A DNA stretch of 64,000 nt from Alistipes sp. (GCA_017624955.1 JAGAMA010000042.1:30318-94317); one strand, 5' to 3'. Shown: positions 7,386 through 57,443, numbered from the stretch's first letter. Program-made: numbers and translations. The notes: generated by a model not told the origin, from the letters alone.

Positions 7386-7408
7386 AGGAAAGTGTTTGAT
7401 AAATCAAA

Positions 7409-7416
7409 CAAAGATA
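7409..7416 (-). promoter_or_regulatory. Bacteroidota -7 box (TATCTTTG) for the beta-helix/GH31 operon
   Basis: Exact TAnnTTTG match 24 nt upstream of ATG 7385, preceded by an AT-rich TTAA-repeat tract. Confidence 0.5.
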
Positions 7417-7420
7417 CGAA

Positions 7421-7460
7421 AATGAATTAAGAATTAAAAATTAAAATTAAGAATTAAAGG
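7421..7460 (-). repeat. AT-rich TTAA-repeat tract (reverse orientation), part of the promoter cassette
   Basis: aatgaattaagaattaaaaattaaaattaagaattaaagg is the reverse complement of the ttaatttttaattcttaatt-type tracts at 8547-8584, 12210-12248 and 26241-26274. Confidence 0.8.
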
Positions 7461-7550
7461 GAGCTAAGGGGGACTAAAGAAAATTAAGGGGGGGGCTAAC
7501 GCACCCCCCCCCTCCTTAGCAACCTTTAGCAACCTTTAGCAACCTTTAAT
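7455..7550. repeat. imperfect long hairpin built from CTAAAGG-type units around a G8/C9 core
   Basis: The left arm carries gctaaggg, actaaag and attaagg. The centre is G8-ctaacgca-C9. The right arm carries ccttagc and three copies of cctttagc. Related tracts lie at 11963-11992 and 46318-46366. Confidence 0.75.
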
Positions 7551-7586
7551 CCACAACCGCCCACAGTACCACCAACCGTCCACTAC

Positions 7587-7674
7587 CTTCCCACCCTCTC
7601 TCTCTTCTCCTGTCACAAGTGTCACAGGTGTCACAGGTGTCACAAGTGTCACGCCCTGTGACACTGTGACACTG
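7587..7674. repeat. polypyrimidine + (GTCAC)n-GCCC-(GTGAC)n module, left copy of an inverted pair
   Basis: A 28-nt exact match (ctcctgtcacaagtgtcacaggtgtcac) to the reverse complement of 8177-8268. It is itself a hairpin centred on gccc. Confidence 0.85.
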
Positions 7675-8045
7675 CGGCACGAGCAGAAAGTACAACCATT
7701 GAACTTTTGCATGCCTTACGGCTCACACCCACGATCGGTCGTGGGCAAGCACTGCTGCCTGGTCGCATCGTGCTGCATGTGCTTATATAAGAACTAATAT
7801 ATATAAATATTATTTATAATTATTAGGTGTGTATAGGCTTCGCTATCGACTCACCCTATTAGACTTACGGCAAGCACGGTTGCCTTGGGTAACTACGCGA
7901 CAAGTCGGTGTCGTAGTGCGTAGGCTGTCGTGTTGTGCCGTATGTAGTGTGTAGGGTAGCGTGTTGTGTGGTGGGTGAAACCACGGCCACGCTATCGTAC
8001 AATTATTGAACCTGCTTGTGGAGCGGTTTGGGTAGCTCCGAGGGA

Positions 8046-8110
8046 GTAACCAAGTAACATAGTAACATTGTAACAGGGGGTGTACCCGTGTTACTGTGTT
8101 ACGATGTTAC
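8046..8110. repeat. hairpin built from GTAACA units
   Basis: gtaaccaagtaacatagtaacattgtaaca - gggggtgtacccg - tgttactgtgttacgatgttac. Confidence 0.75.
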
Positions 8111-8176
8111 GAAAGAGGACTGGGCCCACTGGGGCTACTGAGGCCACTGGGCCAACTGAATAATTCTTAATTCCAG

Positions 8177-8268
8177 GGTGTCACACTGTCACACTGTCAC
8201 AGGGCGTGACACCTGTGACACTTGTGACAGGAGAGGAAAGAGGAGAGAGCGAAGAGAAAAGAAAAGAG
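8177..8268. repeat. (GTCAC)n-GGGC-(GTGAC)n + polypurine module, right (inverted) copy
   Basis: Its reverse complement aligns with 7587-7674. Two 9-nt units present in the left copy are missing here. Confidence 0.85.
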
Positions 8269-8325
8269 TTGAACGTTATGAGCAACGACCTCATTAGCAC
8301 CACCAGCGGAGCTGTAGCGACTAAG

Positions 8326-8363
8326 CCTCCCTTATCAAAGGGAGGTTTGGAGGGATTGTCTAT
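8326..8363 (+). repeat. S2 module, short form
   Basis: cctcccttatcaaagggaggtttggagggattgtctat. It has the same ends as the long form at 25917-26031 but lacks the ~80-nt interior. Confidence 0.8.
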
Positions 8364-8406
8364 ATCTCTTTCTTAAATAATTACTAATTACGCATACTTC
8401 TCGTCT

Positions 8407-8519
8407 CAGCCTTTTGAGGCCACCGCAGGTGGCTTTGAAAACGAGTAGCCACCGCCAAGCTCGCTTGGAGGGTGGCTGCACGTTTACAAAACAATTGCCC
8501 ATAGGCAACCAAAAGGCTG
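8407..8519 (+). repeat. S1 four-helix structured module, copy 1
   Basis: The closing stem cagcctttt/aaaaggctg encloses three hairpins. It is homologous to 26077-26194, with the structure conserved despite sequence divergence. Confidence 0.8.
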
Positions 8520-8546
8520 CAAAGGCCAAACGCCACGCCCACCCCA

Positions 8547-8584
8547 CAATTCTTAATTTTTAATTTTTAATTCTTAATTTTTCT
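8547..8584 (+). repeat. AT-rich TTAA-repeat tract, part of the promoter cassette
   Basis: caattcttaatttttaatttttaattcttaattttt. Confidence 0.8.
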
Positions 8585-8587
8585 TTT

Positions 8588-8595
8588 TATATTTG
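8588..8595 (+). promoter_or_regulatory. -7 box (TATATTTG) for the corrinoid operon
   Basis: Exact TAnnTTTG match 42 nt upstream of ATG 8637, preceded by a TTAA-repeat tract. Confidence 0.5.
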
Positions 8596-8636
8596 TATGA
8601 TTAAACCGCTAACAACAACAATAAACCAATAACACT

Positions 8637-9308
8637 ATGAACGAAATTCTTGAAAAACTCTTTACCTGCATCGAATTTGGAAAGATCAACACCGCATCGC
8701 CCTATCCGCCGCAGATGCGCGGCCAGGAGGGTGCCATGGAGCTCACGAAGCAGGCACTCGATGCCGGCATCGCCCCCTCGGAGATTATGGATTCGGCGCT
8801 GATTCCCGCCATGACGCGCGTGGGTCAGAAGTTTACCGAAGGTCAGGTCTTCGTGCCGCAGATGTTGCTCTCGGCCAAGGCAATGAATGCCGCCCTGACC
8901 CATATCAAGCCCTTCTTCCAGTCGGGTGAGGTGCAGCGCAAGGGTACCTTCATTATCGGTACGGTGTTCGGTGACCTGCACGACATCGGCAAGAACCTCG
9001 TCTGCATGATGGTCGAGGGTGCCGGTTGGGAGGTGGTGGACCTCGGCGTAGATGCTTCGGCCGAGAAGTTCCTCGCAGCCCTCGAAGAGCACCCGGGTGC
9101 CCACGTTGGTCTTTCGGCCCTGCTGACGACGACGATGACCAACATGAAGACCATCATCGACAAGGTGCACGAGACGCACCCCGAGGTGAAGTTTATCGTG
9201 GGTGGCGCTCCCGTGTCGGCCGAGTTTGCCAAGGAGATCGGTGCTGACGGTTACGCCGCCGATCCGCAGGACGACATCAAGATTCTGGAGAGCTTCCTGA
9301 ACGCCTAA
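8637..9308 (+). CDS. corrinoid (cobalamin-binding) methyl-carrier protein, MtaC/MtbC/MetH-B12-domain-like
   Basis: 223 aa. Helical cap region ALDAGIAPSEIMDSALIPAMTRVGQKFTEGQVFVPQMLLSAKAM. DxHxxG motif GDLHDIGKN (D113-G118, nt 8973-8990). SxL (SALLTTT) and GG (IVGGAPV) motifs of the base-off/His-on B12-binding fold are also present. Confidence 0.9.
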   Translation: MNEILEKLFTCIEFGKINTASPYPPQMRGQEGAMELTKQALDAGIAPSEIMDSALIPAMTRVGQKFTEGQVFVPQMLLSAKAMNAALTHIKPFFQSGEVQRKGTFIIGTVFGDLHDIGKNLVCMMVEGAGWEVVDLGVDASAEKFLAALEEHPGAHVGLSALLTTTMTNMKTIIDKVHETHPEVKFIVGGAPVSAEFAKEIGADGYAADPQDDIKILESFLNA

Positions 9309-9329
9309 CGACTTAATATTGAACACACC

Positions 9330-10325
9330 ATGAAAAAGTGGATCGATGCGCTCATGATGAGCGAAAAGCGTGTCGCTGTGCCGATTATGACCCACCCGGG
9401 CATCGAGTACATCGGACGAACGGTGCGCGAGGCGGTGACCGACGGTGAGGTACACGCCGCTGCCATTGAGGCGCTGGCCAAGCGTTATCCCTCGGCTGCC
9501 TCGACGGTCATCATGGACCTCACGGTCGAGGCCGAGGCCTTTGGTGCCAAGATTCTGATTCCCGAGGAGGAGATTCCGACCGTCACGGAGCGCCTGGTGT
9601 CGGATGCCGCATCGGTGGAGGCGCTGCAAGTGCCTACGCTGGAGGCGGGTCGTGTGCCCGAGTACCTCAAAGCCAACCGCCTGGCCGTGGAGAAGATCAC
9701 CGACCGCCCCGTCCTGGCAGGTTGCATCGGCCCCTTCTCGTTAGCAGGTCGCCTGTACGACATGAGCGAGATTATGGTGGCCATCTACATCGAGCCCGAT
9801 GTGATCATGGCCCTCCTGGATAAGTGTACAGCCTTCCTCATCGACTACTGCAAGGCGCTGAAAGCGACGGGTGTTGCAGGTGTTGTGATGGCCGAGCCGG
9901 CTGCAGGTTTGCTCTCGGACGAGGACCACATGGTCTATGCTACGCCCTATGTGAAGCAGATCGTGGATGCCGTGCAGGACGATGATTTCACGGTCATTCT
10001 GCACAACTGCGGCAACATGGGTCAATGTACCCACGCCATGGTCGAGTGCGGTGCGCGTGCGCTCCACTTCGGCAACCTGGTCGATATTCCGCAAGCCCTC
10101 CAGGAGGTGCCCGAGGAGATGCTCGTGATGGGCAACCTCGACCCCGTGAATGTGATTCAGCAGGCTACGCCCGAGGCGGTGGAGGCCGCTACGACCGACC
10201 TGCTGGAGAAGACCGCCGGGGCGAAAAACTTCGTCATCTCGACGGGTTGCGACCTGCCCCCTGCTGTACCCGAGGCCAACATCGAGGCCTTCTTTGCGGC
10301 TGTGGATAAGTACAATGCACGATAG
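9330..10325 (+). CDS. URO-D family methyltransferase, MtaA/CmuA-like (methylcobamide-dependent), with putative Zn ligands
   Basis: 331 aa. Family-typical segments AEAFGA, MAEPAAG, ILHNCGN and ISTGCDLP. His225-x-Cys227 and Cys307 match the spacing of the His-x-Cys...Cys zinc site known from MtaA. Confidence 0.85.
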   Translation: MKKWIDALMMSEKRVAVPIMTHPGIEYIGRTVREAVTDGEVHAAAIEALAKRYPSAASTVIMDLTVEAEAFGAKILIPEEEIPTVTERLVSDAASVEALQVPTLEAGRVPEYLKANRLAVEKITDRPVLAGCIGPFSLAGRLYDMSEIMVAIYIEPDVIMALLDKCTAFLIDYCKALKATGVAGVVMAEPAAGLLSDEDHMVYATPYVKQIVDAVQDDDFTVILHNCGNMGQCTHAMVECGARALHFGNLVDIPQALQEVPEEMLVMGNLDPVNVIQQATPEAVEAATTDLLEKTAGAKNFVISTGCDLPPAVPEANIEAFFAAVDKYNAR

Positions 10326-11031
10326 GGTGGAACGCGCATTTCATACCTACCGTTTTCCCTATGGCGAGGTCTTGCCCTCGCTCGATGAGCTTGCTCGGTA
10401 TCTTCACATGGAGGAGGATACCGAGCATCCTGCTTATTGCTATATGAAAGAGCGCCTTGCGGGGCTTACATCAAGTGATTTGGAGGCTGTGGGAGGCTAT
10501 GCGATCGGCACGATCGAGGGGCTCGATTTGCAGGGCGGAACGCTTACGGTCGAGGGCACGACTTTCGAGGTTGGAGCGCAGGTTTGCGGCTACCTGAAGG
10601 AGGCCACCGAGGCGGCACTTTTCCTCTGCACGGCAGGTGCTCTGTTCTCGGACGAGGCGCATGCGCTGAACGCGCAGGGGGAGTTCCTGGAGGCCTACAT
10701 CATCGATGCCATCGGCTCACTCACGGTGGAGCGTGCGATGGATAAAATCCATAAGGCGCTGGAGGTGGAGCAGGCTGCGCGCGGGATGAAGATCACGAAC
10801 CGCTACAGCCCGGGCTATTGTAATTGGCCGCTCAAAGACCAGCGACCGTTGTTTGCCTTCGTGGGCGAGAACCCCACGGGCATCGCCCTGAGTGAATCGT
10901 GCCTCATGCACCCGATAAAATCGGTCAGTGGCGTGATCGGCATCGGCACCACGGCGCGCCGCCGCGCCTACGGCTGTGTCATCTGCCAAAACAAAACCTG
11001 CATCTACCGCCGCCTGGTGCAGAAGGGGTAA
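10315..11031 (+). CDS. methionine-synthase (MetH) activation-domain-like protein; putative corrinoid reductive reactivation factor
   Basis: The ATG at 10315 overlaps the upstream stop by 11 nt; the track ORF begins at TTG 10294. RYSPGYCNWP resembles the RxxxGY SAM-binding motif of the MetH activation domain. The C-terminal CxxCxxxxC cluster is CVICQNKTC. Confidence 0.75.
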   Translation: MHDRVERAFHTYRFPYGEVLPSLDELARYLHMEEDTEHPAYCYMKERLAGLTSSDLEAVGGYAIGTIEGLDLQGGTLTVEGTTFEVGAQVCGYLKEATEAALFLCTAGALFSDEAHALNAQGEFLEAYIIDAIGSLTVERAMDKIHKALEVEQAARGMKITNRYSPGYCNWPLKDQRPLFAFVGENPTGIALSESCLMHPIKSVSGVIGIGTTARRRAYGCVICQNKTCIYRRLVQKG

Positions 11032-11131
11032 GGGTTCAAAAATGAATTTTTTGGCGCGAAATTTTGTTAATTCCATTTTTCGCCCTATATTTGCACACCC
11101 TTTCGGAACAAAACGACCGAAAACGGGAAAC

Positions 11132-11219
11132 GGAGAGGTGGGTGAGTGGCTGAAACCACCGGTTTGCTAAACCGACGTACCTGATTAGGGTACCACGAGT
11201 TCGAATCTCGTCCTCTCCG
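11132..11219 (+). tRNA. tRNA-Ser (anticodon GCU), type II with long variable arm
   Basis: Folded by hand. Acceptor GGAGAGG/CCTCTCC; 3-bp D stem with a GG loop; anticodon loop TTGCTAA. Variable arm GTACC-tgattag-GGTAC. T arm ACGAG-TTCGAAT-CTCGT. Discriminator G; no encoded CCA. Confidence 0.9.
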
Positions 11220-11246
11220 CAAAAGGGCAAACGCCCCGGCGAACGA

Positions 11247-11270
11247 CCTCTGCTTTTGCAGAGGTTTTTT
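11247..11270 (+). terminator. Rho-independent terminator after tRNA-Ser
   Basis: CCTCTGC-tttt-GCAGAGG followed by TTTTTT. Confidence 0.75.
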
Positions 11271-11369
11271 GTTTTTAGGCGGGGATGTTTGCGAGTTTAT
11301 TCGTGTAACTTCCCGCCTAAAAACAAAAACACTCCCGTTGGGAGTAGTTCGCGTAGGGCGTTTGGCTTT

Positions 11370-11509
11370 TGCAAGGATGCCTCCGGCAGGAAAGAGAAAG
11401 GGCTCGCTTTAGCGAGGCCAATTTCGTCCTCTCCACCCTTCGATAAAGGGCATCCTTGCAAAAAGCAACCCTTTTGCGGAGAAGGACATAGACAATCCCC
11501 CTAAATCCC
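11370..11509 (+). repeat. M3 module, tandem copy 1 (~140 nt)
   Basis: tgcaaggatgcctccggcagg...gggcatccttgca...cttttgcggagaaggacatagacaatccc. Nearly identical to 11690-11819; I count two substitutions and one A-position shift. Confidence 0.85.
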
Positions 11510-11689
11510 CCTTTGATAAGGGGGACTTCAAACTTGCGGACCCCGCGGGAGCGCAGAGAAAGGCGTAGCGAAGCAGGCTTGCCTGCGCAGCAGCCAATCT
11601 CGTCCGAAGAGTCCGCTTCAACAAACCGTTGGCGGAGAGAACTCCTACAATCCACCCCAACCCCTCCTTTGATAAGGAGGGGCTTGAGA

Positions 11690-11819
11690 TGCAAGGATGC
11701 CTCCGGCAGGAAAGAGAAAGGGCTCGCTTTAGCGAGGCCAATTTCGTCCTCTCCGCCCTTCGACAAAGGGCATCCTTGCAAAAGCAAACCCTTTTGCGGA
11801 GAAGGACATAGACAATCCC
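11690..11819 (+). repeat. M3 module, tandem copy 2
   Basis: See 11370-11509. Confidence 0.85.
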
Positions 11820-11925
11820 TCCAAACCTCCCTTTACGGCGATAAATCGCCGTGACTGCTTGCGCGCCTCGGTAAAGTCTGCAAGCAGCCTCTACACTCGG
11901 CTGTTGCAGCAGTTGATAAGGAGGG
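11807..11925 (-). repeat. S2 module, long form (reverse orientation)
   Basis: Its reverse complement aligns end to end with 25917-26031. A short form in the same orientation lies at 11497-11525. Confidence 0.8.
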
Positions 11926-12004
11926 GCTTGCAATGCGGACCCCGCGGGAGCGCAGAGAAAGGCAACTAAAGGTTGCTAAGGGTTGCTAAAGGTCATCGGG
12001 CTTT

Positions 12005-12094
12005 GGGGCTGAGGCCACTGCGCCCACTGCGCCTACTGGGGCTACTGAAAAAAGTCAGTCGCCCCAGCTGCCCCAGTGGGCCCAGTAGGCCCAG
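12005..12094. repeat. hairpin built from GGCCCACTG-type units
   Basis: ggggctgaggccactgcgcccactgcgcctactggggctactg - aaaaaagt - cagtcgccccagctgccccagtgggcccagtaggcccag. A related one-armed tract lies at 8120-8157. Confidence 0.75.
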
Positions 12095-12137
12095 ACTCAT
12101 GACCCGCCGACCGTCAGCCACCTTCCAACCCCCTCTC

Positions 12138-12201
12138 GTGTCACCGCCTGTCACTATGTGTCACACCTGTCACGCCCTGTGACACGGTGACAGCGTGACA
12201 C
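12138..12201. repeat. (GTCAC)n-GCCC-(GTGAC)n hairpin, third copy of the family
   Basis: gtgtcaccgcctgtcactatgtgtcacacctgtcac-gccc-tgtgacacggtgacagcgtgacac, flanked by C/T-rich runs as in 7587-7674. Confidence 0.8.
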
Positions 12202-12209
12202 CCCCTCCC

Positions 12210-12248
12210 TTAATTTTTAATTCATAATTTTTAATTCTTAATTCTTTT
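12210..12248 (+). repeat. AT-rich TTAA-repeat tract, part of the promoter cassette
   Basis: ttaatttttaattcataatttttaattcttaattctttt. Confidence 0.8.
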
Positions 12249-12251
12249 CGC

Positions 12252-12259
12252 TATCTTTG
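12252..12259 (+). promoter_or_regulatory. -7 box (TATCTTTG) for the pectin operon
   Basis: Exact TAnnTTTG match 24 nt upstream of ATG 12283, preceded by a TTAA-repeat tract. The flanks are nearly identical to the 7409-7416 cassette. Confidence 0.5.
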
Positions 12260-12282
12260 TCTTGATTATACCTAAACCTACT

Positions 12283-13698
12283 ATGAAAACAAAACTCTTT
12301 TCGCGCGCGCTTGCGTGTGTGTGCGCCTTGTGGTGTACCTTTTCCGTGGCCGAGGCGCAGACCATGACCGATCGCCTGGCTGCCTCCGAAACCCCCTTTA
12401 CGATGCCTTTTGAAGAGGTTGTTGCCGAGGTGGAGGCGCTGTTCGATGTCAAACTCGACTGCCGTAATTTCGACCCCAAGAGCCTCACGCTCGATTTTGC
12501 CGCTTCGCGCATCCGTCCCTATTCGTTGGAGGAGACCTTGCGCAATGTCTTGATGCCCCTCGACCTGAAGTGGGAGCAAAATGGCCGCACGATTCGCGTG
12601 CAACCCTACGAGTACCACCGTCGCGTGCCTGCCGATGGCGAGAAATTGCTCGCCTGGCTCTCGGCCAAGTATAACAACCGCGCCGAGTGGGAGCAGCGTA
12701 AGGAGGAGGTAAAAAAGGATGCGCTGCGCATTCTCGACCTCGATCCCTTTGTGCGCGGTCTAAAGGCCGATCCCGATATCCGCATCGGCCAAATCACGAA
12801 GCATGACGGCTACACGACGCAGAACTTTGCCCTGGAGACCCTCCCCGGTCTTTATGCCTGTGGTACGATCTACGCACCCACGGTAAAGCTCAAGGGCAAG
12901 GCGAAGCGCCCCCTGATCATCTCGCCTGCAGGTCACTGGCCCGAGGCGCGCTACCGTGCCGACCAGCAGTATCGCATGGCCACCTTTGCCCGCATGGGTG
13001 CTGTGGCGGTCGATGTCGATATCGTAGCCTGGGGTGAGTCGGAGCATCAGCTCGGCATTGAGGCCCACCAGGCCCCCTACGCCATGCAGGTGCAGGTGCT
13101 CTGGTCGAAGGTCGTGACCGACTGGATTTTGGCCACGCGCACCGATGTCGATGTCAATCGCATGGCCGCTACGGGCGGTTCGGGCGGTGGTACGCATACG
13201 CTGATGATTGCCCTGGTGGATGGTCGTTTCTCGGTGTTGGCTCCCGTGGTGCACCTCGTGTCGCACTTCGACGGTGGTTGCCCCTGCGAGAGTGGTCGCC
13301 CCGTGGCTTTGGCCGCAGGTGGTTCGGCCATGCCCGAGTTGCTGGCTGCCGTGATGGCTCCGAAGCCCGTGCTGACGGTCTCGGACGGTGGCGACTGGAC
13401 CCACACCTATCCCACGCTTGAGCAGCCCTACCTGCACCGCATCTGGGGCTTCTACAATGCCCAGCACAACCTCCGCAATGCCCACTTCGCGGACGAGAAG
13501 CACGACTACGGCCCCAATAAGCGCATGGCCGTCTATCGCTTCTTTGCCGATGAGCTGGGTATGGACTTTACGCAGGTCGATGAGACGAAGGTGACCCTGC
13601 AGCCGCATGAGGCCCTGCAGACCTTCCGTGGCGCGCTGCCCGAGGGGGCCATCCGCTCGGCCAAAGAGTTGGAAAATCTAATCAAAACATTCAAATAA
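12283..13698 (+). CDS. secreted alpha/beta-hydrolase carbohydrate esterase (acetyl esterase-like)
   Basis: Start at ATG 12283 gives MKTKLFSRALACVCALWC, a signal peptide. ATGGSGGGTHT is a GxSxG-type nucleophile elbow. It is the first gene of the pectin operon. Confidence 0.75.
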   Translation: MKTKLFSRALACVCALWCTFSVAEAQTMTDRLAASETPFTMPFEEVVAEVEALFDVKLDCRNFDPKSLTLDFAASRIRPYSLEETLRNVLMPLDLKWEQNGRTIRVQPYEYHRRVPADGEKLLAWLSAKYNNRAEWEQRKEEVKKDALRILDLDPFVRGLKADPDIRIGQITKHDGYTTQNFALETLPGLYACGTIYAPTVKLKGKAKRPLIISPAGHWPEARYRADQQYRMATFARMGAVAVDVDIVAWGESEHQLGIEAHQAPYAMQVQVLWSKVVTDWILATRTDVDVNRMAATGGSGGGTHTLMIALVDGRFSVLAPVVHLVSHFDGGCPCESGRPVALAAGGSAMPELLAAVMAPKPVLTVSDGGDWTHTYPTLEQPYLHRIWGFYNAQHNLRNAHFADEKHDYGPNKRMAVYRFFADELGMDFTQVDETKVTLQPHEALQTFRGALPEGAIRSAKELENLIKTFK

Positions 13699-16625: not shown

Positions 16626-18455
16626 ATGCGTAAATTACTCTATTTTCTGGCGGCTGTCTGCCTATGGACGGGTTGTTCGGACGAATACGATGATTCGGCC
16701 ATCAAGGGCGACATCGACGACCTGAAGGATAAAGTTGCCGCCCTGGAGCAGCAGATTGCTTCGCTCAAGCAGGAGGCCACGAAGATCAACAACGACATTG
16801 CCGCCCTGAAGGATATTGCCGACGGCATCGCCATTACGAAGGTGACGGAGAATGCCGATGGCGGTTATACGGTAACCTTCTCCAACGGCAAGAGCTACAC
16901 GATTGCCAACGGCCAGAAGGGTGATCAGGGTCCGCAGGGTCCCCAGGGCCCCGAGGGTGCTGCCTGTACGCCGATGATGCGCATCGATTCGGAGGGTTAT
17001 TGGCAGGTAAGCTACGACGGCGGTACGACCTGGGAGTATCCCGGTGGCGAGAAGATCTCGGCTTTGGGCCAGACGGGTGCCACGGGTGACCAGGGTGCCC
17101 AGGGTCAGACGGGTGCTACGCCCCAGATCAGTGTCGATTCGGAGGGCTACTGGACGGTCAGCTACGATGGCGGTAAGACTTTCGAGCGCATGAAGGATGC
17201 TGCAGGTAACGAGATCAAGGCGGTTGTTTCGGAGGGTACGGGCAACGTCAGCTACAAATCGGTCTTCGAGTCGGTAAGCTACTCGGCCGAGAACTCGACC
17301 CTGCAGGTGGTGCTGGCAGGCACGACCGAGGTGCTGGAGATTCCCGTAGGTGGTGCTGCGTTGGCACAGCTCTACGCAGGTGAGAACCCCGTGGAGGGTG
17401 TTCAGACCTTTGCTGCAGGCGAGACGAAGAGCTACACGGTGAAGGCCCCCACGGCCGATATGGTTAAGGTGGTCGGCTATCCCGATGGTTGGACGGTTGC
17501 GCTGAAGGAGATGACCCTCGATGTAACGGCTCCCGCGGCTCAAAGCCGCGCTACGGCCGACTCGGCTACGGATGTTTCGCTCTTGGTTGTGATGAAGAAC
17601 GGCCTTGCCACGGTACTGCGCATGCAGGTTGCTGTGGACGGTACGGCTGCACCTGCCGTGCCGCTGGCTACGCCCGTGGTGACGCTTACGCCCGCCTCGG
17701 TAACGGCCGTTACGGAGCAGGCTGTGGTAGCTGCTTGGGAGGCTGTTGCCAATGCCGCCTCGTATAAGGTTTCGTTCAATGGCGCTGCTGCTACGACCGT
17801 AACGGAGGCTGCCTATACGATTGCCGCTGCGGATGTGAAGGCCCTTGCCAAGGGCGAGTATAAGATTTCGGTGGTGGCTGTTCCGGCTGATGCCGTGGCT
17901 TACACCGAGTCGGCTGCCGGTGAGGCTACGCTGACCGTAACGGAGGCCACTACGCCCCCGTCGGGTGAGGTAAAGACCTACACGCTGATTGCTGCGGAGA
18001 TGCACTCGGCCGGTACGACGGGTATCCCGGGCGGTTCGTCGGGTGTTGTCGATATGGGTGATACCTTCACGACCTGGACTTGGAATTCGTTTAGCTTCGA
18101 GTCGCGTTGCGCCTTGACCACGACGGGTCAGGCCGATGGTACGAAGGTTCCTGTCCTTTATTTCTACAAGACCTCGAAGGTGGCTGCCGGTACGCTGATT
18201 CGCAATACGACGGCTTTGGGCGAGATTCAGAAGATTACCATTACGCTGGTTGATAACGGCGCGAAGAAGGGTGAACTCTTCTCGATGGTAGAGACCGTCA
18301 ATGGCGCTGAGCAAACCGTACAGTCGGCAAATCATACGCAGTCGTCGTGTGAGCATGTTTATACCTTCTCGGCCGGCAACAACGGTAAGTTTGTCTTCTC
18401 GAATCCTTCGGATCAGGATTGCAAGGTGCTTTCGTTTGTGATCGAGTACAAATAA
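16626..18455 (+). CDS. surface lipoprotein with N-terminal coiled coil, two collagen-like G-X-Y blocks, an Fn3-like middle and an unknown C-terminal domain
   Basis: Lipobox CLWTGC. Heptad-like DDLKDKVAALEQQIASLKQEATKINNDIAALKD. G-X-Y blocks GQKGDQGPQGPQGPEGA (nt 16911-16958 approx) and GQTGATGDQGAQGQTGA. The N-terminal module is homologous to that of the adjacent PL1 protein. Confidence 0.8.
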   Translation: MRKLLYFLAAVCLWTGCSDEYDDSAIKGDIDDLKDKVAALEQQIASLKQEATKINNDIAALKDIADGIAITKVTENADGGYTVTFSNGKSYTIANGQKGDQGPQGPQGPEGAACTPMMRIDSEGYWQVSYDGGTTWEYPGGEKISALGQTGATGDQGAQGQTGATPQISVDSEGYWTVSYDGGKTFERMKDAAGNEIKAVVSEGTGNVSYKSVFESVSYSAENSTLQVVLAGTTEVLEIPVGGAALAQLYAGENPVEGVQTFAAGETKSYTVKAPTADMVKVVGYPDGWTVALKEMTLDVTAPAAQSRATADSATDVSLLVVMKNGLATVLRMQVAVDGTAAPAVPLATPVVTLTPASVTAVTEQAVVAAWEAVANAASYKVSFNGAAATTVTEAAYTIAAADVKALAKGEYKISVVAVPADAVAYTESAAGEATLTVTEATTPPSGEVKTYTLIAAEMHSAGTTGIPGGSSGVVDMGDTFTTWTWNSFSFESRCALTTTGQADGTKVPVLYFYKTSKVAAGTLIRNTTALGEIQKITITLVDNGAKKGELFSMVETVNGAEQTVQSANHTQSSCEHVYTFSAGNNGKFVFSNPSDQDCKVLSFVIEYK

Positions 18456-25732: not shown

Positions 25733-25788
25733 AAATTTAGCATTTAGAATTCAAAATTTAGAATTAGGGATTCTAAAATTAGAGCTAT

Positions 25789-25832
25789 AAGGCCTATGGG
25801 ACCTATGTGTCCTATGGGCCTTATATTTTTTT
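25789..25832 (+). terminator. Rho-independent terminator of the pectin operon
   Basis: A 14-bp stem (AAGGCCTATGGGAC...GTCCTATGGGCCTT) followed by ATATTTTTTT. Confidence 0.75.
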
Positions 25833-25916
25833 GTATTGGTGTTCATCTGTCTTTTTGATTTCAACGGAAATCCACAACGATTATTAGCATTACCCAAGGA
25901 GCTTTAGCGACTAAGT

Positions 25917-26031
25917 CCCCCTTATCAACTGCTGCAACAGCCGAGTGCAGAGGTCGCTTGCGAACCTATGCCGAGGCGCGCAAGCAGTCACGGCAAATTG
26001 CCGTAAAGGGGGATTTAGGGGGATTGTCTAT
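25917..26031 (+). repeat. S2 module, long form
   Basis: cccccttatcaa...three internal hairpins...gtaaagggggatttagggggattgtctat. Confidence 0.8.
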
Positions 26032-26076
26032 ATTTTTTTTATTTACAAGGAAAATTTACCTTAATCACTCCGCTTT

Positions 26077-26194
26077 CAGCCTTTTGTGCCACTGAAGGTG
26101 GCATTGAAAATGATTTACTCCGCCTCTGAGCTTGCTCGGAAAGGCGAAGTAAATTGTTTTCAAATCAGTTGCCAAGCAGGCAACCAAAAGGCTG
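26077..26194 (+). repeat. S1 four-helix structured module, copy 2
   Basis: See 8407-8519. Confidence 0.8.
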
Positions 26195-26240
26195 CGCCAT
26201 GAAGCTCTGCGATGTGCCCTTTTCACACTTTTGTAGGCAT

Positions 26241-26274
26241 AATTTTTAATTTTTAATTTTTAATCGCTAATTTT
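26241..26274 (+). repeat. AT-rich TTAA-repeat tract, part of the promoter cassette
   Basis: aatttttaatttttaatttttaatcgctaatttt. Confidence 0.8.
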
Positions 26275-46022: not shown

Positions 46023-46443
46023 AGCATTTTTTGATTTTATACGGCATATTTTGCACTTCCCTCGCGGGCTGCGAATGGGAAATACGCTTAGTATGTCCCA
46101 TCCAGGCCGAACTGCATAATGACAAAATCAGCTCCTCTAAAATCAAAAAATGGTCATGATGCTGCCGACCCAATCACAAAAGCGGCTTCTTAAGCCGCCC
46201 ATCCGCGCCCACTTCACGAAGCCCAAAATCTTCTCGTCTAAAATCAAAAAAGCCCGTTATGAACGGGCCTTTGCGTTGAGTTTGACAGAAAAAACGGTTG
46301 TGGTGCTAATGCCCCCGCCTTTAGTCTCCTTTAGTTTCCTTTAGTCCCCTTTAGCTCCCTTTCCGCCTCTTCCCGAAAAGTAAAAAACGCTGATTGTTTT
46401 ACTTTTCGGTCTTTAGAAAGGCGGAAAATCGAAAACTTTGCCG

Positions 46444-55898: not shown

Positions 55899-55899
55899 C

Positions 55900-56036
55900 G
55901 TTGAAAGTTGAAAGTTGAGAGTTGAAAGTTTTTTTGTCGTGCTTTCAGCCGCTCAACAAAAAGGGAGATAGTCAAACCGGTGACTATCTCCCTTTTTGTT
56001 GAGCTAACTTTCAACTCTCAACTTTCAATTTTCAAC
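55900..56036. repeat. nested palindrome: 31-nt GTTGAAAG-unit arms enclosing the 24-bp terminator hairpin
   Basis: The arms 55900-55930 and 56006-56036 are reverse complements with one mismatch. They abut the stop codons of the two convergent genes. Confidence 0.85.
55951..56004. terminator. perfect 24-bp hairpin acting as a bidirectional terminator between convergent genes
   Basis: GCTCAACAAAAAGGGAGATAGTCA-aaccgg-TGACTATCTCCCTTTTTGTTGAGC. Confidence 0.7.
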
Positions 56037-57443
56037 TTACTGCTTGATGTTCGGCAGCTCTAGGCCGTAACCCTTCTTCTTGTCCTCGATCTTGAGGTAG
56101 AAGCTCATGATGAAGGCCAGCACGCCAAACGACGAGAAGATGACCATCGGCGCAACATAGCTACCCGTAGCATCGAGTACCGTACCGATCAGGAGCGGCA
56201 CCAGGCAGAGACCGATGTTCTGAATCCAGAAAATCACGCAGTAGGCCGAGCCCAGAATCTTCGAGTCGATGATCTTGGGTACCGAGGGCCACAGGGCAGC
56301 GGGTACGAGCGAGAACGAAACACCCAGCGTAACCACCAACAGCAGAGCCAGACCCTTCGAGGGGAACATCGGCAGCAGGAAGGCGAACGAAAGGTGGCAG
56401 GCAATCATAATCACGGCACCCACCATCAGCATCGTAGCACCCTTACCCTTGAAGTCGAGCAACGCACCGAGGAAGGGCGTGAGGCACATGGCCAGCACGG
56501 GGAAGCAGCTGAACAGACGAGCTGCCGACTCAGCGTCGATACCGAGCGTCACCTCCAGGAAGTTCGGAGCGTAGCGCTGGAAGGGGAAGATGGCCGAGTA
56601 GTAGAGCACGCAGAGCAGTGCCACGAGCCAGAACATCTTCGACGAGAAGATCTTGCCCAGGTCCTTGATCTGGAACTCCTCCTCCGAGGTCTCCTCCTTC
56701 TTCTCGCCCGAGGCGATCAACTGCTTATCGAACTTCTGATCCATCAGCACGAAGATTGCATAGTTCAAAAGGCCGATGATGAGCAGCACCGTGCAGAAGG
56801 CTACGGGGGCTACGACCGACTGATCGAACCAACCCGAAACCATCGGGGCGAGCCACATCACGGCGAATACACCCAGACGGGCGATGGCCATCTCCATACC
56901 CATAGCGAGAGCCATCTCCTTGCCCTCGAACCACTTGGCAATGGCCTTCGAGACGGTCGTACCGGCCATCTCACAACCGCAACCAAAGATCATGAAGCCG
57001 AGCGAGGCAACCTTCGCACTTGCAGGGAACGAAGTCCACCACGAGCCGAGCCATGCGCAGAACTCGGTGGTCTGGAACCAATCCGTGATACCTACATACT
57101 TGATGCAGGCACCGAGTACCATCAGCGAGGCCGACAGCAGACCCGTGAAGCGGATACCCATCTTGTCGAGGATGATACCGGCGAAGATGAGGAAGAAGAC
57201 AAAGACATTCAGAAAGTACTCCGAGGCGGCATACGTTCCGAAGGTCGAGCTGTCCCAGCCGCGCTCCTGCTCAATGAGCGATTTGAGCGGCGACATCACA
57301 TCGACAAACATGTAGGCAAAGAACATCATCGAGGCGATGAGAAACAGCGCGCCCCAACGAAGATACCATTTGTCGTTCATTTTTTGTGTCAAAGTTTGCG
57401 TCATAGTTTTTATGAATTTAAGTTTGTTTAGTCGTTTAATCAT
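56037..57443 (-). CDS. MFS transporter
   Basis: 468 aa with about 12 TM segments. The start is uncertain: Met1 (57443) overlaps the upstream stop by 8 nt; alternatives are 57404 and 57380. Confidence 0.8.
   Translation of the reverse strand: MIKRLNKLKFIKTMTQTLTQKMNDKWYLRWGALFLIASMMFFAYMFVDVMSPLKSLIEQERGWDSSTFGTYAASEYFLNVFVFFLIFAGIILDKMGIRFTGLLSASLMVLGACIKYVGITDWFQTTEFCAWLGSWWTSFPASAKVASLGFMIFGCGCEMAGTTVSKAIAKWFEGKEMALAMGMEMAIARLGVFAVMWLAPMVSGWFDQSVVAPVAFCTVLLIIGLLNYAIFVLMDQKFDKQLIASGEKKEETSEEEFQIKDLGKIFSSKMFWLVALLCVLYYSAIFPFQRYAPNFLEVTLGIDAESAARLFSCFPVLAMCLTPFLGALLDFKGKGATMLMVGAVIMIACHLSFAFLLPMFPSKGLALLLVVTLGVSFSLVPAALWPSVPKIIDSKILGSAYCVIFWIQNIGLCLVPLLIGTVLDATGSYVAPMVIFSSFGVLAFIMSFYLKIEDKKKGYGLELPNIKQ

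What the first reader, a model, noticed from the sequence alone, without database searches (positions are those of the whole stretch)
7455..12201. Hairpins whose arms are tandem arrays of a short unit and its complement (GTCAC, GTAACA, CTAAAGG, GGCCCACTG, GTTGAAAG)
Seen in sequence: at least seven intergenic elements share one design rule. The left arm is 3-5 degenerate tandem copies of a 6-10-nt unit, followed by a short loop, and the right arm is tandem copies of the complementary unit. The elements are 7455-7550 (CTAAAGG), 7611-7674, 8177-8232 and 12138-12201 (GTCAC/GTGAC around GCCC), 8046-8110 (GTAACA), 12005-12094 (GGCCCACTG) and 55900-56036 (GTTGAAAG). Copy number of the unit varies between copies; the left GTCAC module has two more units than its inverted partner.

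Inference: this is not the usual terminator or REP design. It suggests either slippage-prone palindromes, arrays of half-sites for a DNA-binding protein (the GTCAC/GTGAC units superficially resemble TGTGA/TCACA half-sites), or the substrate of an unknown DNA-processing activity. I do not know of a described family with this architecture, but I cannot search the literature here.
Basis: partly seen in the sequence, partly recalled or inferred. Interest (0 to 1): 0.65.

Follow-up and report, generated by a model that had tools for sequence, protein, structure and literature searches.

The report
Hairpins built from inverted tandem arrays
The odd hairpins are real: in this ruminant-gut Alistipes-like bacterium many intergenic regions hold palindromes whose two arms are short tandem repeats. 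The design was already noted in Xanthomonas, here it changes fast between strains, and one type (TGTCAC) matches the repeat clusters at phage replication origins.

Summary
Confirmed. All seven listed elements are tandem arrays (period 7-10 nt) facing an inverted array of the complementary unit. They fold far better than shuffles, and arrays are about 10 times more frequent than chance. More examples lie in and next to the window.

They are not artefacts: independent assemblies carry them. They are lineage-specific: sister species (75-82% nucleotide identity) have a 172-175 bp spacer with no arrays at the same locus. Among ~96%-identical lineages, unit numbers differ, whole modules are present or absent, deletions lie between direct arrays, and one segment between inverted arrays is flipped.

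They are not REP/RAYT elements and match no Rfam family. The design has a precedent: about 70 convergent GGGAATC array pairs per Xanthomonas genome.

Best reading: slippage expands a short unit next to a small hairpin, and inverted duplication copies it across. The products serve different purposes. Some are or flank intrinsic terminators, and some sit in a duplicated promoter cassette.

The TGTCAC/GTAACA arrays around a 12-15% GC core resemble iteron origins. Three phage groups carry inverted TGTCAC arrays at a primase/helicase gene.

New variant of a known kind; function untested.

The parts
7455..7550 (.). C hairpin. The left arm holds degenerate (CTAARGGNNN) units ending in G8, the loop is CTAACGCA, and the right arm is C8 plus (CCTTTAGCAA)x3. 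The core is terminator-like on the minus strand, pointing at the GH141 promoter.
   Evidence: (z -4.98)
7611..7674 (.). A1 module: (TGTCACARG)x5, GCCC, (TGTGACAC)x2.
   Evidence: unit number 3-7 in other strains
7675..8045 (.). Centre segment between the A and B arrays. It has no ORF and holds a 12-15% GC core at about 7776-7832. It is 90% identical to a second locus (L032).
8046..8110 (.). B hairpin: (GTAACANN)x4, GGGGGTGTACCCGT, (GTTACNNT)x3.
   Evidence: (z -6.43); right arm has 3 or 4 units between strains
8119..8158 (+). One-armed D array, (ACTGGGCCC)x4.4. It is the direct-repeat partner for a deletion seen in L007.
8177..8232 (.). A2 module, an inverted copy of A1: (GTCACACT)x3, GGGC, (GTGACACNT)x3.
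   Evidence: (I2 88%, I7 95%)
11966..11993 (+). One-armed C array, (CTAAAGGTTG)x2.8.
12005..12094 (.). D hairpin: (CCACTGNGC)x4, loop AAAAAAGT, (CAGNNGCCC)x4. It is part of a cassette found upstream of three promoters.
   Evidence: (z -5.78)
12138..12201 (.). A3 module, a solo copy 8 nt upstream of the AT-rich array of the peptidase promoter.
   Evidence: (I3 89%)
7424..7458 (-). AT-rich heptamer array (TTAATTN)n directly upstream of the GH141 promoter. Sister arrays lie at 8546-8594, 12209-12246 and 26239-26274.
25734..25833 (+). AT-rich palindromic array, then a (CCTATGGGA)x3 hairpin followed by T7 just after a stop codon. This is an intrinsic terminator built from an array.
   Evidence: z -5.47
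46318..46362 (+). One-armed (CCTTTAGTNN)x4.4 array in a divergent intergenic region, next to another hairpin.
55899..56038 (.). E element: (GTTGARA)x4, a 75-nt centre holding a bidirectional terminator (55954-55999), and (TTTCAAC)x4. The arms match at 30 of 32 positions with the same order of unit variants.
   Evidence: (z -15.8)

Best explanation
These are genuine, lineage-specific intergenic palindromes whose arms are long simple-sequence repeats with 7-10 nt units. They are a class defined by how they arise, not one sequence family and not the substrate of one enzyme.

Proposed origin:
1. Replication slippage expands a short unit next to a small existing hairpin, often an intrinsic terminator.
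2. Template switching or inverted duplication across that hairpin copies the array to the other side.
3. The two arms then drift apart through further slippage.
4. The arrays act as homology for deletions and inversions, and for moving whole modules between intergenic regions. The result is mosaic regions.

What the products do varies:
- Some are or extend intrinsic terminators.
- The GGCCCACTG and GTCAC hairpins upstream of genes belong to a duplicated cassette of hairpin, AT-rich heptamer array and Bacteroidota-type promoter.
- The TGTCAC/GTAACA arrays around an AT-rich core look like an iteron-type replication-origin module of phage or mobile-element descent.

Shown: the anatomy, the excess over chance, lineage restriction, polymorphism, the deletions and the inversion, the inverted duplication, and the terminator-like structures.

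Inferred: slippage and template switching as the generating steps, and every functional assignment.
For: Anatomy and excess over chance.

Independent assemblies: ten loci from ENA, NCBI and JGI carry the same arrays, and L005 is 100% identical to the window.

Lineage restriction: sister species with the same gene order have 172-175 bp spacers and no arrays in 20 kb. At the E locus, a relative at 82% amino-acid identity has a plain terminator.

Slippage: unit-number differences in every array among ~96%-identical lineages. The arms of A modules have different periods.

Inverted duplication:
- The E arms share the same order of unit variants, 30 of 32 positions.
- The 503-bp intergenic region of L001 is 76% self-complementary, against 48% for shuffles. 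About 115 nt around the D hairpin is an exact inverted copy.
- A1 and A2 are 88-95% complementary.

Arrays as recombination substrates:
- L007 has a deletion between two direct D arrays.
- L001 and L010 lack the whole A-to-A block, with a CCTGT microhomology at the junction.
- The centre of E is inverted in L178.

Terminators. Array-next-to-terminator is also seen just outside the window.

Promoter cassette.

Precedent: convergent GGGAATC arrays in Xanthomonas, which are intergenic, lie close to stop codons and differ in length between species (PMC4692102).
Against: Slippage and template switching are inferred from end products; no event was observed.

The compared strains differ by about 4% in coding DNA, so the rates need not be unusually high.

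The model does not explain why this lineage and not its sisters, nor why the same cores (TGTCAC, GTTGAAA) recur in unrelated phage contigs. That recurrence points to sequence-specific function for at least some units.

Identical modules with identical loops at several loci need dispersal as well as local birth.

No usable strand-specific RNA data were available.
Confidence: 0.5

Rival explanations
1. The TGTCAC and GTAACA arrays are protein-binding iterons. The block 7611-8232 would be an orphan or relic replication origin of the SaPI/PICI or phage primase-helicase type. In those origins, sets of short repeats point in opposite directions around an AT-rich unwinding core, and the winged-helix domain of a self-loading helicase binds them.
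For: Three IMG/VR contigs of one phage (L212, L223, L252) have (TGTCACCCT)x4, a 92-bp spacer at 31% GC, then (AGGGTGACA)x4. This lies immediately 3' of a Prim-Pol/VapE-type ORF.

L206 has TGTCAC arrays in both directions immediately 3' of a 781-aa Prim-Pol/VapE protein.

The only blastn hit of window 7560-8270 among 50,697 phage records is (GTGTCACAR)x3...(GTGACACTT)x3 inside the 3' end of the primase/helicase gene of Microbacterium phage Fizzles. The A3 module hits ten further records (eight other phages, two held twice) in the same gene.

L400 and L407/L408 carry inverted GTAACA arrays around about 330 bp with an AT-rich core. L400's core shares ATATTATTTATAATT with the window, and L408's arrays lie next to a Dda-like helicase.

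The window block has a 12-15% GC core.

SaPI origin layout as described in PMC9371898.
Against: No rep, primase-helicase or phage gene lies within the 64-kb window or the 18 kb fetched beyond it.

Each A module is a tight hairpin with a 4-nt loop, not arrays around an AT-rich spacer.

The Fizzles protein is not homologous to the VapE-type proteins, so a shared binding domain is not shown.

The blastn E-values are weak (9e-6 and 0.05).

This reading does not cover the C, D and E types.
Confidence: 0.3
2. The hairpins are selected at the RNA level as long-stem terminators, insulators in front of promoters, or 3'-end stabilisers. Arrays would simply be the cheapest way to lengthen a stem.
For: 25786-25833 is a hairpin plus U7 directly after a stop codon. 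The E arrays extend a bidirectional terminator between convergent genes. The C core is terminator-like on the minus strand. Arrays lie beside terminators in L170 and L172. In Xanthomonas most such arrays are transcribed and lie about 28 nt after stop codons.
Against: The A, B and D hairpins have no U-tract and lie in a divergent promoter region where no transcript needs to end. Arms differ in period and unit number, so pairing is not maintained. One-armed arrays exist. The available RNA data were unoriented contigs and said nothing about transcript ends.
Confidence: 0.3
3. They are non-autonomous mobile elements of the MITE, foldback or REPIN kind, whose repeated units are transposase binding sites.
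For: A1 and A2 are inverted repeats bounding 500 bp, and L001 and L010 lack the block. The A module, C hairpin and centre occur at an unrelated locus beside mobile-element debris (L032). A roughly 1.45-kb contig in the same metagenomes is bounded by inverted A modules. Depth suggests about 3 copies of the A module and about 8 of the C array.
Against: There is no target-site duplication; the flanks are themselves inverted complements (CTCTCC / GGAGAG). No transposase or RAYT was found in the 82 kb examined. Copy numbers are low. The empty site is equally well explained by a microhomology deletion. Five or six unrelated unit families would need as many transposases. L032 may be a chimeric contig.
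Confidence: 0.12
4. They are programmed invertible switches (invertons) flipped by a site-specific recombinase, as is common in Bacteroidales.
For: They have the geometry of inverted repeats flanking 75-500 bp. The centre of E lies in opposite orientation in two lineages.
Against: The A-to-A block has the same orientation in all ten assemblies and in L032. The E inversion is a fixed difference between diverged lineages. No recombinase gene lies nearby. No strand-change joints were seen, although unitigs cannot show them.
Confidence: 0.07
5. They are assembly artefacts.
For: Some short-read contigs end inside arrays (L128, L129 and L179; L032).
Against: The same structures appear in independent assemblies from different samples, assemblers and archives. 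The differences between them are coherent with phylogeny.
Confidence: 0.01

Closest known systems
Convergent GGGAATC heptamer arrays of Xanthomonas (Rehm et al. 2015, PMC4692102), and long simple-sequence repeats in general (cyanobacterial STRR, from memory; TAACTGA repeats, PMC4679880)
   Same: A tandem array of a unit of about 7 nt faces an array of the complementary unit close by. The arrays are intergenic, often just after stop codons, usually hold about 4 units, and differ in length between close relatives.
   Different: Here at least five unrelated units occur in one genome, with periods of 7-10 nt, and most are not G-quadruplex formers. The host is a Bacteroidales gut bacterium. Modules are nested, shuffled between loci and tied to a duplicated promoter cassette.
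Iteron origins of SaPI/PICI satellites (PMC9371898) and of phage P4 and lambda (from memory)
   Same: Cores of 5-6 nt are repeated several times on each side, point in opposite directions and surround an AT-rich segment. Phage comparators with TGTCAC arrays have them directly 3' of, or inside, the primase/helicase gene.
   Different: The window has no replication gene nearby. Each A module is a tight hairpin. Binding and origin firing are untested.
REP, REPIN and BIME elements with RAYT transposases
   Same: They are intergenic palindromes that form mosaics with other motifs.
   Different: There is no GTAG or CGTC head, the arms are tandem arrays, copy number is low, and no RAYT was seen. A separate 42-nt element at 8323-8364 is the high-copy, REP-like repeat of this genome.
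Foldback and Galileo transposons of Drosophila
   Same: Their long inverted termini are made of tandem subrepeats that carry multiple transposase binding sites (PMC3688188, abstract as listed; the tandem-subrepeat structure is from memory).
   Different: Those are eukaryotic, kilobases long and create target-site duplications. None of that is seen here.
Bacteroidales invertons
   Same: Inverted repeats flank a short intergenic segment, and one such segment is found in both orientations across lineages.
   Different: No recombinase, no promoter shown inside, and no mixture of orientations within one strain.

Membership tests
Inverted long-SSR arrays (Xanthomonas GGGAATC type) | Tandem array of at least 2 units of a short (about 7 nt) motif | tested here: met
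   TRF periods 7-10 with 2.4-4.7 copies
Inverted long-SSR arrays (Xanthomonas GGGAATC type) | A second array of the complementary unit close by on the other strand | tested here: met
Inverted long-SSR arrays (Xanthomonas GGGAATC type) | G-rich GGGANTN unit able to form a G-quadruplex | tested here: not met
   The units are GTCAC, GTAACA, GTTGAAA, CTAAAGG and CCACTG. Only the last two are G-rich on one strand.
Inverted long-SSR arrays (Xanthomonas GGGAATC type) | Intergenic, with length differing between close relatives | tested here: met
   All are intergenic; polymorphism
REP/REPIN with RAYT | A 20-40 nt imperfect palindrome with a conserved GTAG or CGTC head | tested here: not met
   By reading the sequences; the arms are tandem arrays of 60-140 nt
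REP/REPIN with RAYT | Tens to hundreds of copies per genome | tested here: not met
   Depth ratios suggest about 3 (A) and about 8 (C) copies
REP/REPIN with RAYT | A RAYT (IS200/IS605 TnpA-like) gene in the genome, flanked by the repeats | not testable with these tools
   Only 64 kb plus 18 kb of this genome could be read. No Pfam or other family search was run specifically for a RAYT/TnpA-like gene; only selected ORFs of the window were scanned and none of those hit a transposase family.
Iteron-type origin (SaPI/PICI, phage primase-helicase replicons) | At least two short repeats on each side, pointing in opposite directions | tested here: met
   A1, A2, A3 and B
Iteron-type origin (SaPI/PICI, phage primase-helicase replicons) | An AT-rich region between the two repeat sets | tested here: inconclusive
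   A 12-15% GC core at 7776-7832 lies between the A1 and B arrays, but each hairpin itself has only a 4-14 nt loop
Iteron-type origin (SaPI/PICI, phage primase-helicase replicons) | Lies immediately downstream of, or inside, the rep or primase-helicase gene | tested here: not met
   The neighbours are GH141 and a corrinoid methyltransferase operon. The feature is met in the phage comparators.
Iteron-type origin (SaPI/PICI, phage primase-helicase replicons) | Bound by the initiator, and fires as an origin | not testable with these tools
   Needs EMSA or DAP-seq and copy-number profiling
Intrinsic (Rho-independent) terminator | A G+C-rich hairpin followed by a U-tract at a gene's 3' end | tested here: inconclusive
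   Met by 25786-25833, the core of E and the C core on the minus strand. Not met by the A, B and D hairpins.
MITE or foldback transposon | Terminal inverted repeats plus a target-site duplication | tested here: not met
   Inverted repeats are present, but the flanks are inverted complements with no direct duplication
Bacteroidales inverton | Both orientations coexist in one population, with a recombinase | tested here: inconclusive
   The centre of E is flipped between lineages. The A block never is. Unitigs cannot resolve this.
Any Rfam family | A match at or above the gathering score | tested here: not met
   Only tRNA-Ser reaches threshold. Sub-threshold miRNA-hairpin noise appears at 7453-7685.

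The most novel reading that the evidence does not exclude
The TGTCAC/GTAACA block is an orphan phage-type replication origin kept in chromosomal intergenic DNA. An incoming phage's or satellite's self-loading primase-helicase would recognise it in trans. It could then act as a decoy that titrates the initiator, or as a way for the flanking genes to be over-replicated and packaged. More broadly, array palindromes would be the engine that duplicates and flips promoter cassettes in this lineage.
Probability: 0.1. Interest if true: 0.8.

Novelty: new variant of a known kind. Interest (0 to 1): 0.5.

Why it matters
It gives a worked example, with strain-level comparison, of how short tandem repeats and small hairpins together build and reshuffle intergenic DNA in a gut Bacteroidales lineage. 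A 170-bp spacer has grown to 0.5-1.25 kb, promoters have been duplicated in inverted orientation, and arrays have driven deletions and an inversion.

It extends the Xanthomonas observation to another phylum and to several unit types in one genome.

It also points to a testable link between one unit (TGTCAC) and the origins of phage primase-helicase replicons. These regions break short-read assemblies, so they matter for the quality of metagenome-assembled genomes.

Tried and rejected
- Rfam, gathering and E-value modes: only tRNA and sub-threshold miRNA hairpins.
- Genome-collection scan for the A-module centre: 31 hits, 30 by chance and one real (L032).
- Metagenome scan with the same pattern: 79 chance hits, none with arrays.
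- Viral scans for the A centre, the C array variant and the centre segment: nothing real.
- Viral scans for period-9 CCACTG and CTAAAGG patterns: none of the hits had an inverted partner array; I did not inspect them further, and period-9 hits may be in-frame coding repeats.
- Plasmid collection: no match. Phage blastn with the B, C and D hairpins: no match.
- RNA runs: only unoriented Logan contigs, some probably contaminated with DNA, so nothing can be said about transcription.
- CRP-like half-site idea: rejected, because units within an arm are direct repeats.
- oriC: rejected. There is a single DnaA-box-like 9-mer and no GC-skew switch.
- Cross-phylum transfer through L032: not pursued. 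The bulk of that contig is another organism (tetranucleotide r = 0.66), and its last 1.3 kb is a patchwork that includes a tet-gene flank, so a chimeric contig cannot be excluded.
- First look-up of the glycosyltransferase failed because of a wrong start codon.

Full report
**What is there.** The window has 56.6% G+C and Bacteroidota-style promoters (TAnnTTTG, no Shine-Dalgarno). The closest named relatives of its corrinoid protein are Alistipes sp. at 90% identity. All matching samples are ruminant or other gut metagenomes.

The finding spans two long intergenic regions that flank a corrinoid methyltransferase operon and tRNA-Ser. The first, 7386-8636, lies between divergent GH141 and B12-binding genes. 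The second, 11221-12283, runs from the tRNA to an S9-like peptidase gene. A third site, 55899-56036, lies between convergent genes.

TRF finds arrays of period 7-10 at every listed coordinate. All seven elements fold far better than dinucleotide shuffles, with z from -2.6 to -15.8. A census with exact 5-mer cores gives 16 arrays against 1.5 expected. It gives 5 inverted-array loci against none in 100 simulations.

- Arms pair mainly through the conserved cores.
- The two arms of the GTCAC modules have periods 9 and 8.
- Some arrays have one arm only (8119-8158, 11966-11993, 46318-46362).
- Further examples exist. At 25786-25833 a (CCTATGGGA)3 hairpin is followed by U7 directly after a stop codon. 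Just outside the window an AAGGG/CCCTT hairpin follows a terminator (L172), and a CTTTAGCTRC array follows another (L170).

**Not an artefact, and specific to this lineage.** Ten contigs from ENA, NCBI and JGI encode the identical B12-binding protein. One (L005) is 100% identical to the window, and the others are 95.5-96.7% identical in coding DNA. All carry the arrays.

The GH141-B12 spacer measures 503, 973, 1112, 1251 or 1257 bp in these contigs. Two sister species (75-82% nucleotide identity, same gene order) have spacers of 172 and 175 bp, with no such arrays anywhere in 20 kb. At the third site, a relative at 82% protein identity has a plain terminator.

**How the regions differ between lineages.**
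- Unit numbers change in every array. The GTCAC left arm has 3, 4, 5 or 7 units, and the GGCCCACTG left arm has 3-6.
- L007 lacks the stretch between two direct GGCCCACTG arrays.
- L001 and L010 lack the whole block from the first to the second GTCAC module. The junction is CTCTCTCC-TGTGACA-GGAGAGG, with a CCTGT microhomology.
- Next to the GH141 promoter, the window has the CTAAAGG hairpin where eight of the nine other assemblies have a GGCCCACTG hairpin (L005, identical to the window, has CTAAAGG).
- In L178, the 75-nt segment between the GTTGAAA arrays, terminator included, is inverted relative to the window.

**Evidence for inverted duplication.**
- The GTTGAAA arms match at 30 of 32 positions and share the same order of unit variants.
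- The whole 503-bp spacer of L001 is 76% self-complementary, against 48% for shuffles. About 115 nt around the GGCCCACTG hairpin is an exact inverted copy.
- The promoters of GH141, the B12 operon and the peptidase gene share a homologous cassette. It consists of a hairpin, a spacer, a (TTAATTN)n array and a TATCTTTG box.

**Dispersal.** Contig depth in samples that hold this strain suggests about 3 copies of the GTCAC module and about 8 of the CTAAAGG array. (GTTGAAA)n is 1000-1800 times the genome baseline, so it is common across the community.

One genome-collection hit (L032) carries a GTCAC module, a CTAAAGG hairpin and the same centre segment (90% identity) at an unrelated locus. That contig belongs to another organism. 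It ends in the element and carries 275 bp of the 3' flank of a tet ribosomal-protection-like gene, named from its EF-G-type domains and mobile-element context rather than confirmed. It is therefore either mobile-element debris or a chimera.

**The lead from phages.** One IMG/VR phage (three contigs) has (TGTCACCCT)x4, a 92-bp spacer at 31% GC and (AGGGTGACA)x4 immediately 3' of a Prim-Pol/VapE-type gene. Another has TGTCAC arrays in both directions immediately 3' of a 781-aa homologue.

The only blastn hit of 7560-8270 in 50,697 GenBank phage records is (GTGTCACAR)x3...(GTGACACTT)x3 inside the 3' end of the primase/helicase gene of Microbacterium phage Fizzles. A separate search with the 12138-12201 module hits ten further records of related Microbacterium phages (eight phages, two held twice) in the same gene. 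That protein is not homologous to the VapE type.

Inverted GTAACA arrays around about 330 bp with an AT-rich core occur in three more viral contigs. One of them (L400) shares a 15-mer with the window's AT-rich core. In another (L408) the arrays lie next to a Dda-like helicase.

This layout is what is described for SaPI origins. There, 6-12 short iterons lie just downstream of rep, half on each side of an AT-rich region and pointing in opposite directions. The helicase's winged-helix domain binds them (PMC9371898).

The window block has the arrays and a 12-15% GC core, but no replication gene nearby.

**Comparison with what is known.** The design is not undescribed. Rehm et al. 2015 report 70-75 cases per Xanthomonas genome of two GGGAATC arrays in convergent orientation. 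Those arrays are intergenic, lie close to stop codons, are mostly transcribed and differ in length between species. TAACTGA arrays of Beggiatoaceae, cyanobacteria and a few Bacteroidetes are a direct-repeat relative.

REP/RAYT, MITE, inverton and Rfam membership each fail at least one defining feature (see the membership table).

**Verdict.** This is a real, well-supported structural class. It is best explained by slippage plus inverted duplication around small hairpins, with mixed downstream uses: terminators, promoter cassettes and an origin-like module. It is a new variant of a known kind. Function remains untested.

Noticed in passing
8323-8364 (+), 11485-11528 (-), 11805-11834 (-), 25910-26035 (+, with an insertion of about 85 nt in its loop): A 42-nt hairpin-plus-tail element (AAGCCTCCCTTATCAAAGGGAGGTTTGGAGGGATTGTCTATA). 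Its contig depth is about 85 times the genome baseline, which makes it the true high-copy, REP-like repeat of this genome. A conserved ATTAGCAYYACCCAAGGAGC... stretch precedes it.
   Followed up: partly
11132-11834: tRNA-Ser is followed by two extra copies of its 3' end (11420-11436 and 11740-11756) inside a 320-bp tandem duplication. The copy number of that duplication differs between strains. These look like att-type scars of integrative elements.
   Followed up: partly
7386-7460 (-), 8546-8636 (+), 12205-12283 (+), 26239-26272 (+): (TTAATTN)n heptamer arrays lie directly upstream of Bacteroidota-type promoters. Three of the promoters are homologous over about 65 nt, so a promoter cassette has been duplicated, once in inverted orientation.
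   Followed up: partly
8410-8520 and 26078-26200: Another dispersed element of about 110 nt (CAGCCTTTTG...GGCAACCAAAAGGCTGC), present or absent between strains.
   Followed up: no
L032 7027-7312; L176, L177: A fragment of about 275-286 bp, 95-96% identical to the 3' flank of an EF-G-like, probably tet ribosomal-protection gene. That gene sits on a conjugative element (L177). In a MAG labelled Kiritimatiellae the fragment lies about 110 bp from the GTCAC module.
   Followed up: partly
L184, L189, L186 (IMG/VR): (GTTGAAA)4-5 arrays end exactly at, or a few bases before, ATG start codons in phage contigs. This recalls the TAACTGA arrays upstream of start codons in Beggiatoaceae and suggests a role in the mRNA leader.
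   Followed up: no
16918-17116: Period-9 and period-18 TRF hits here are collagen-like G-X-Y coding repeats in a DUF4988 protein. They are unrelated to the intergenic arrays.
   Followed up: yes
L123 12415-13096: The sister species has its own tandem intergenic repeat of about 200 bp downstream of the methyltransferase operon. The stretch also contains runs of N.
   Followed up: no
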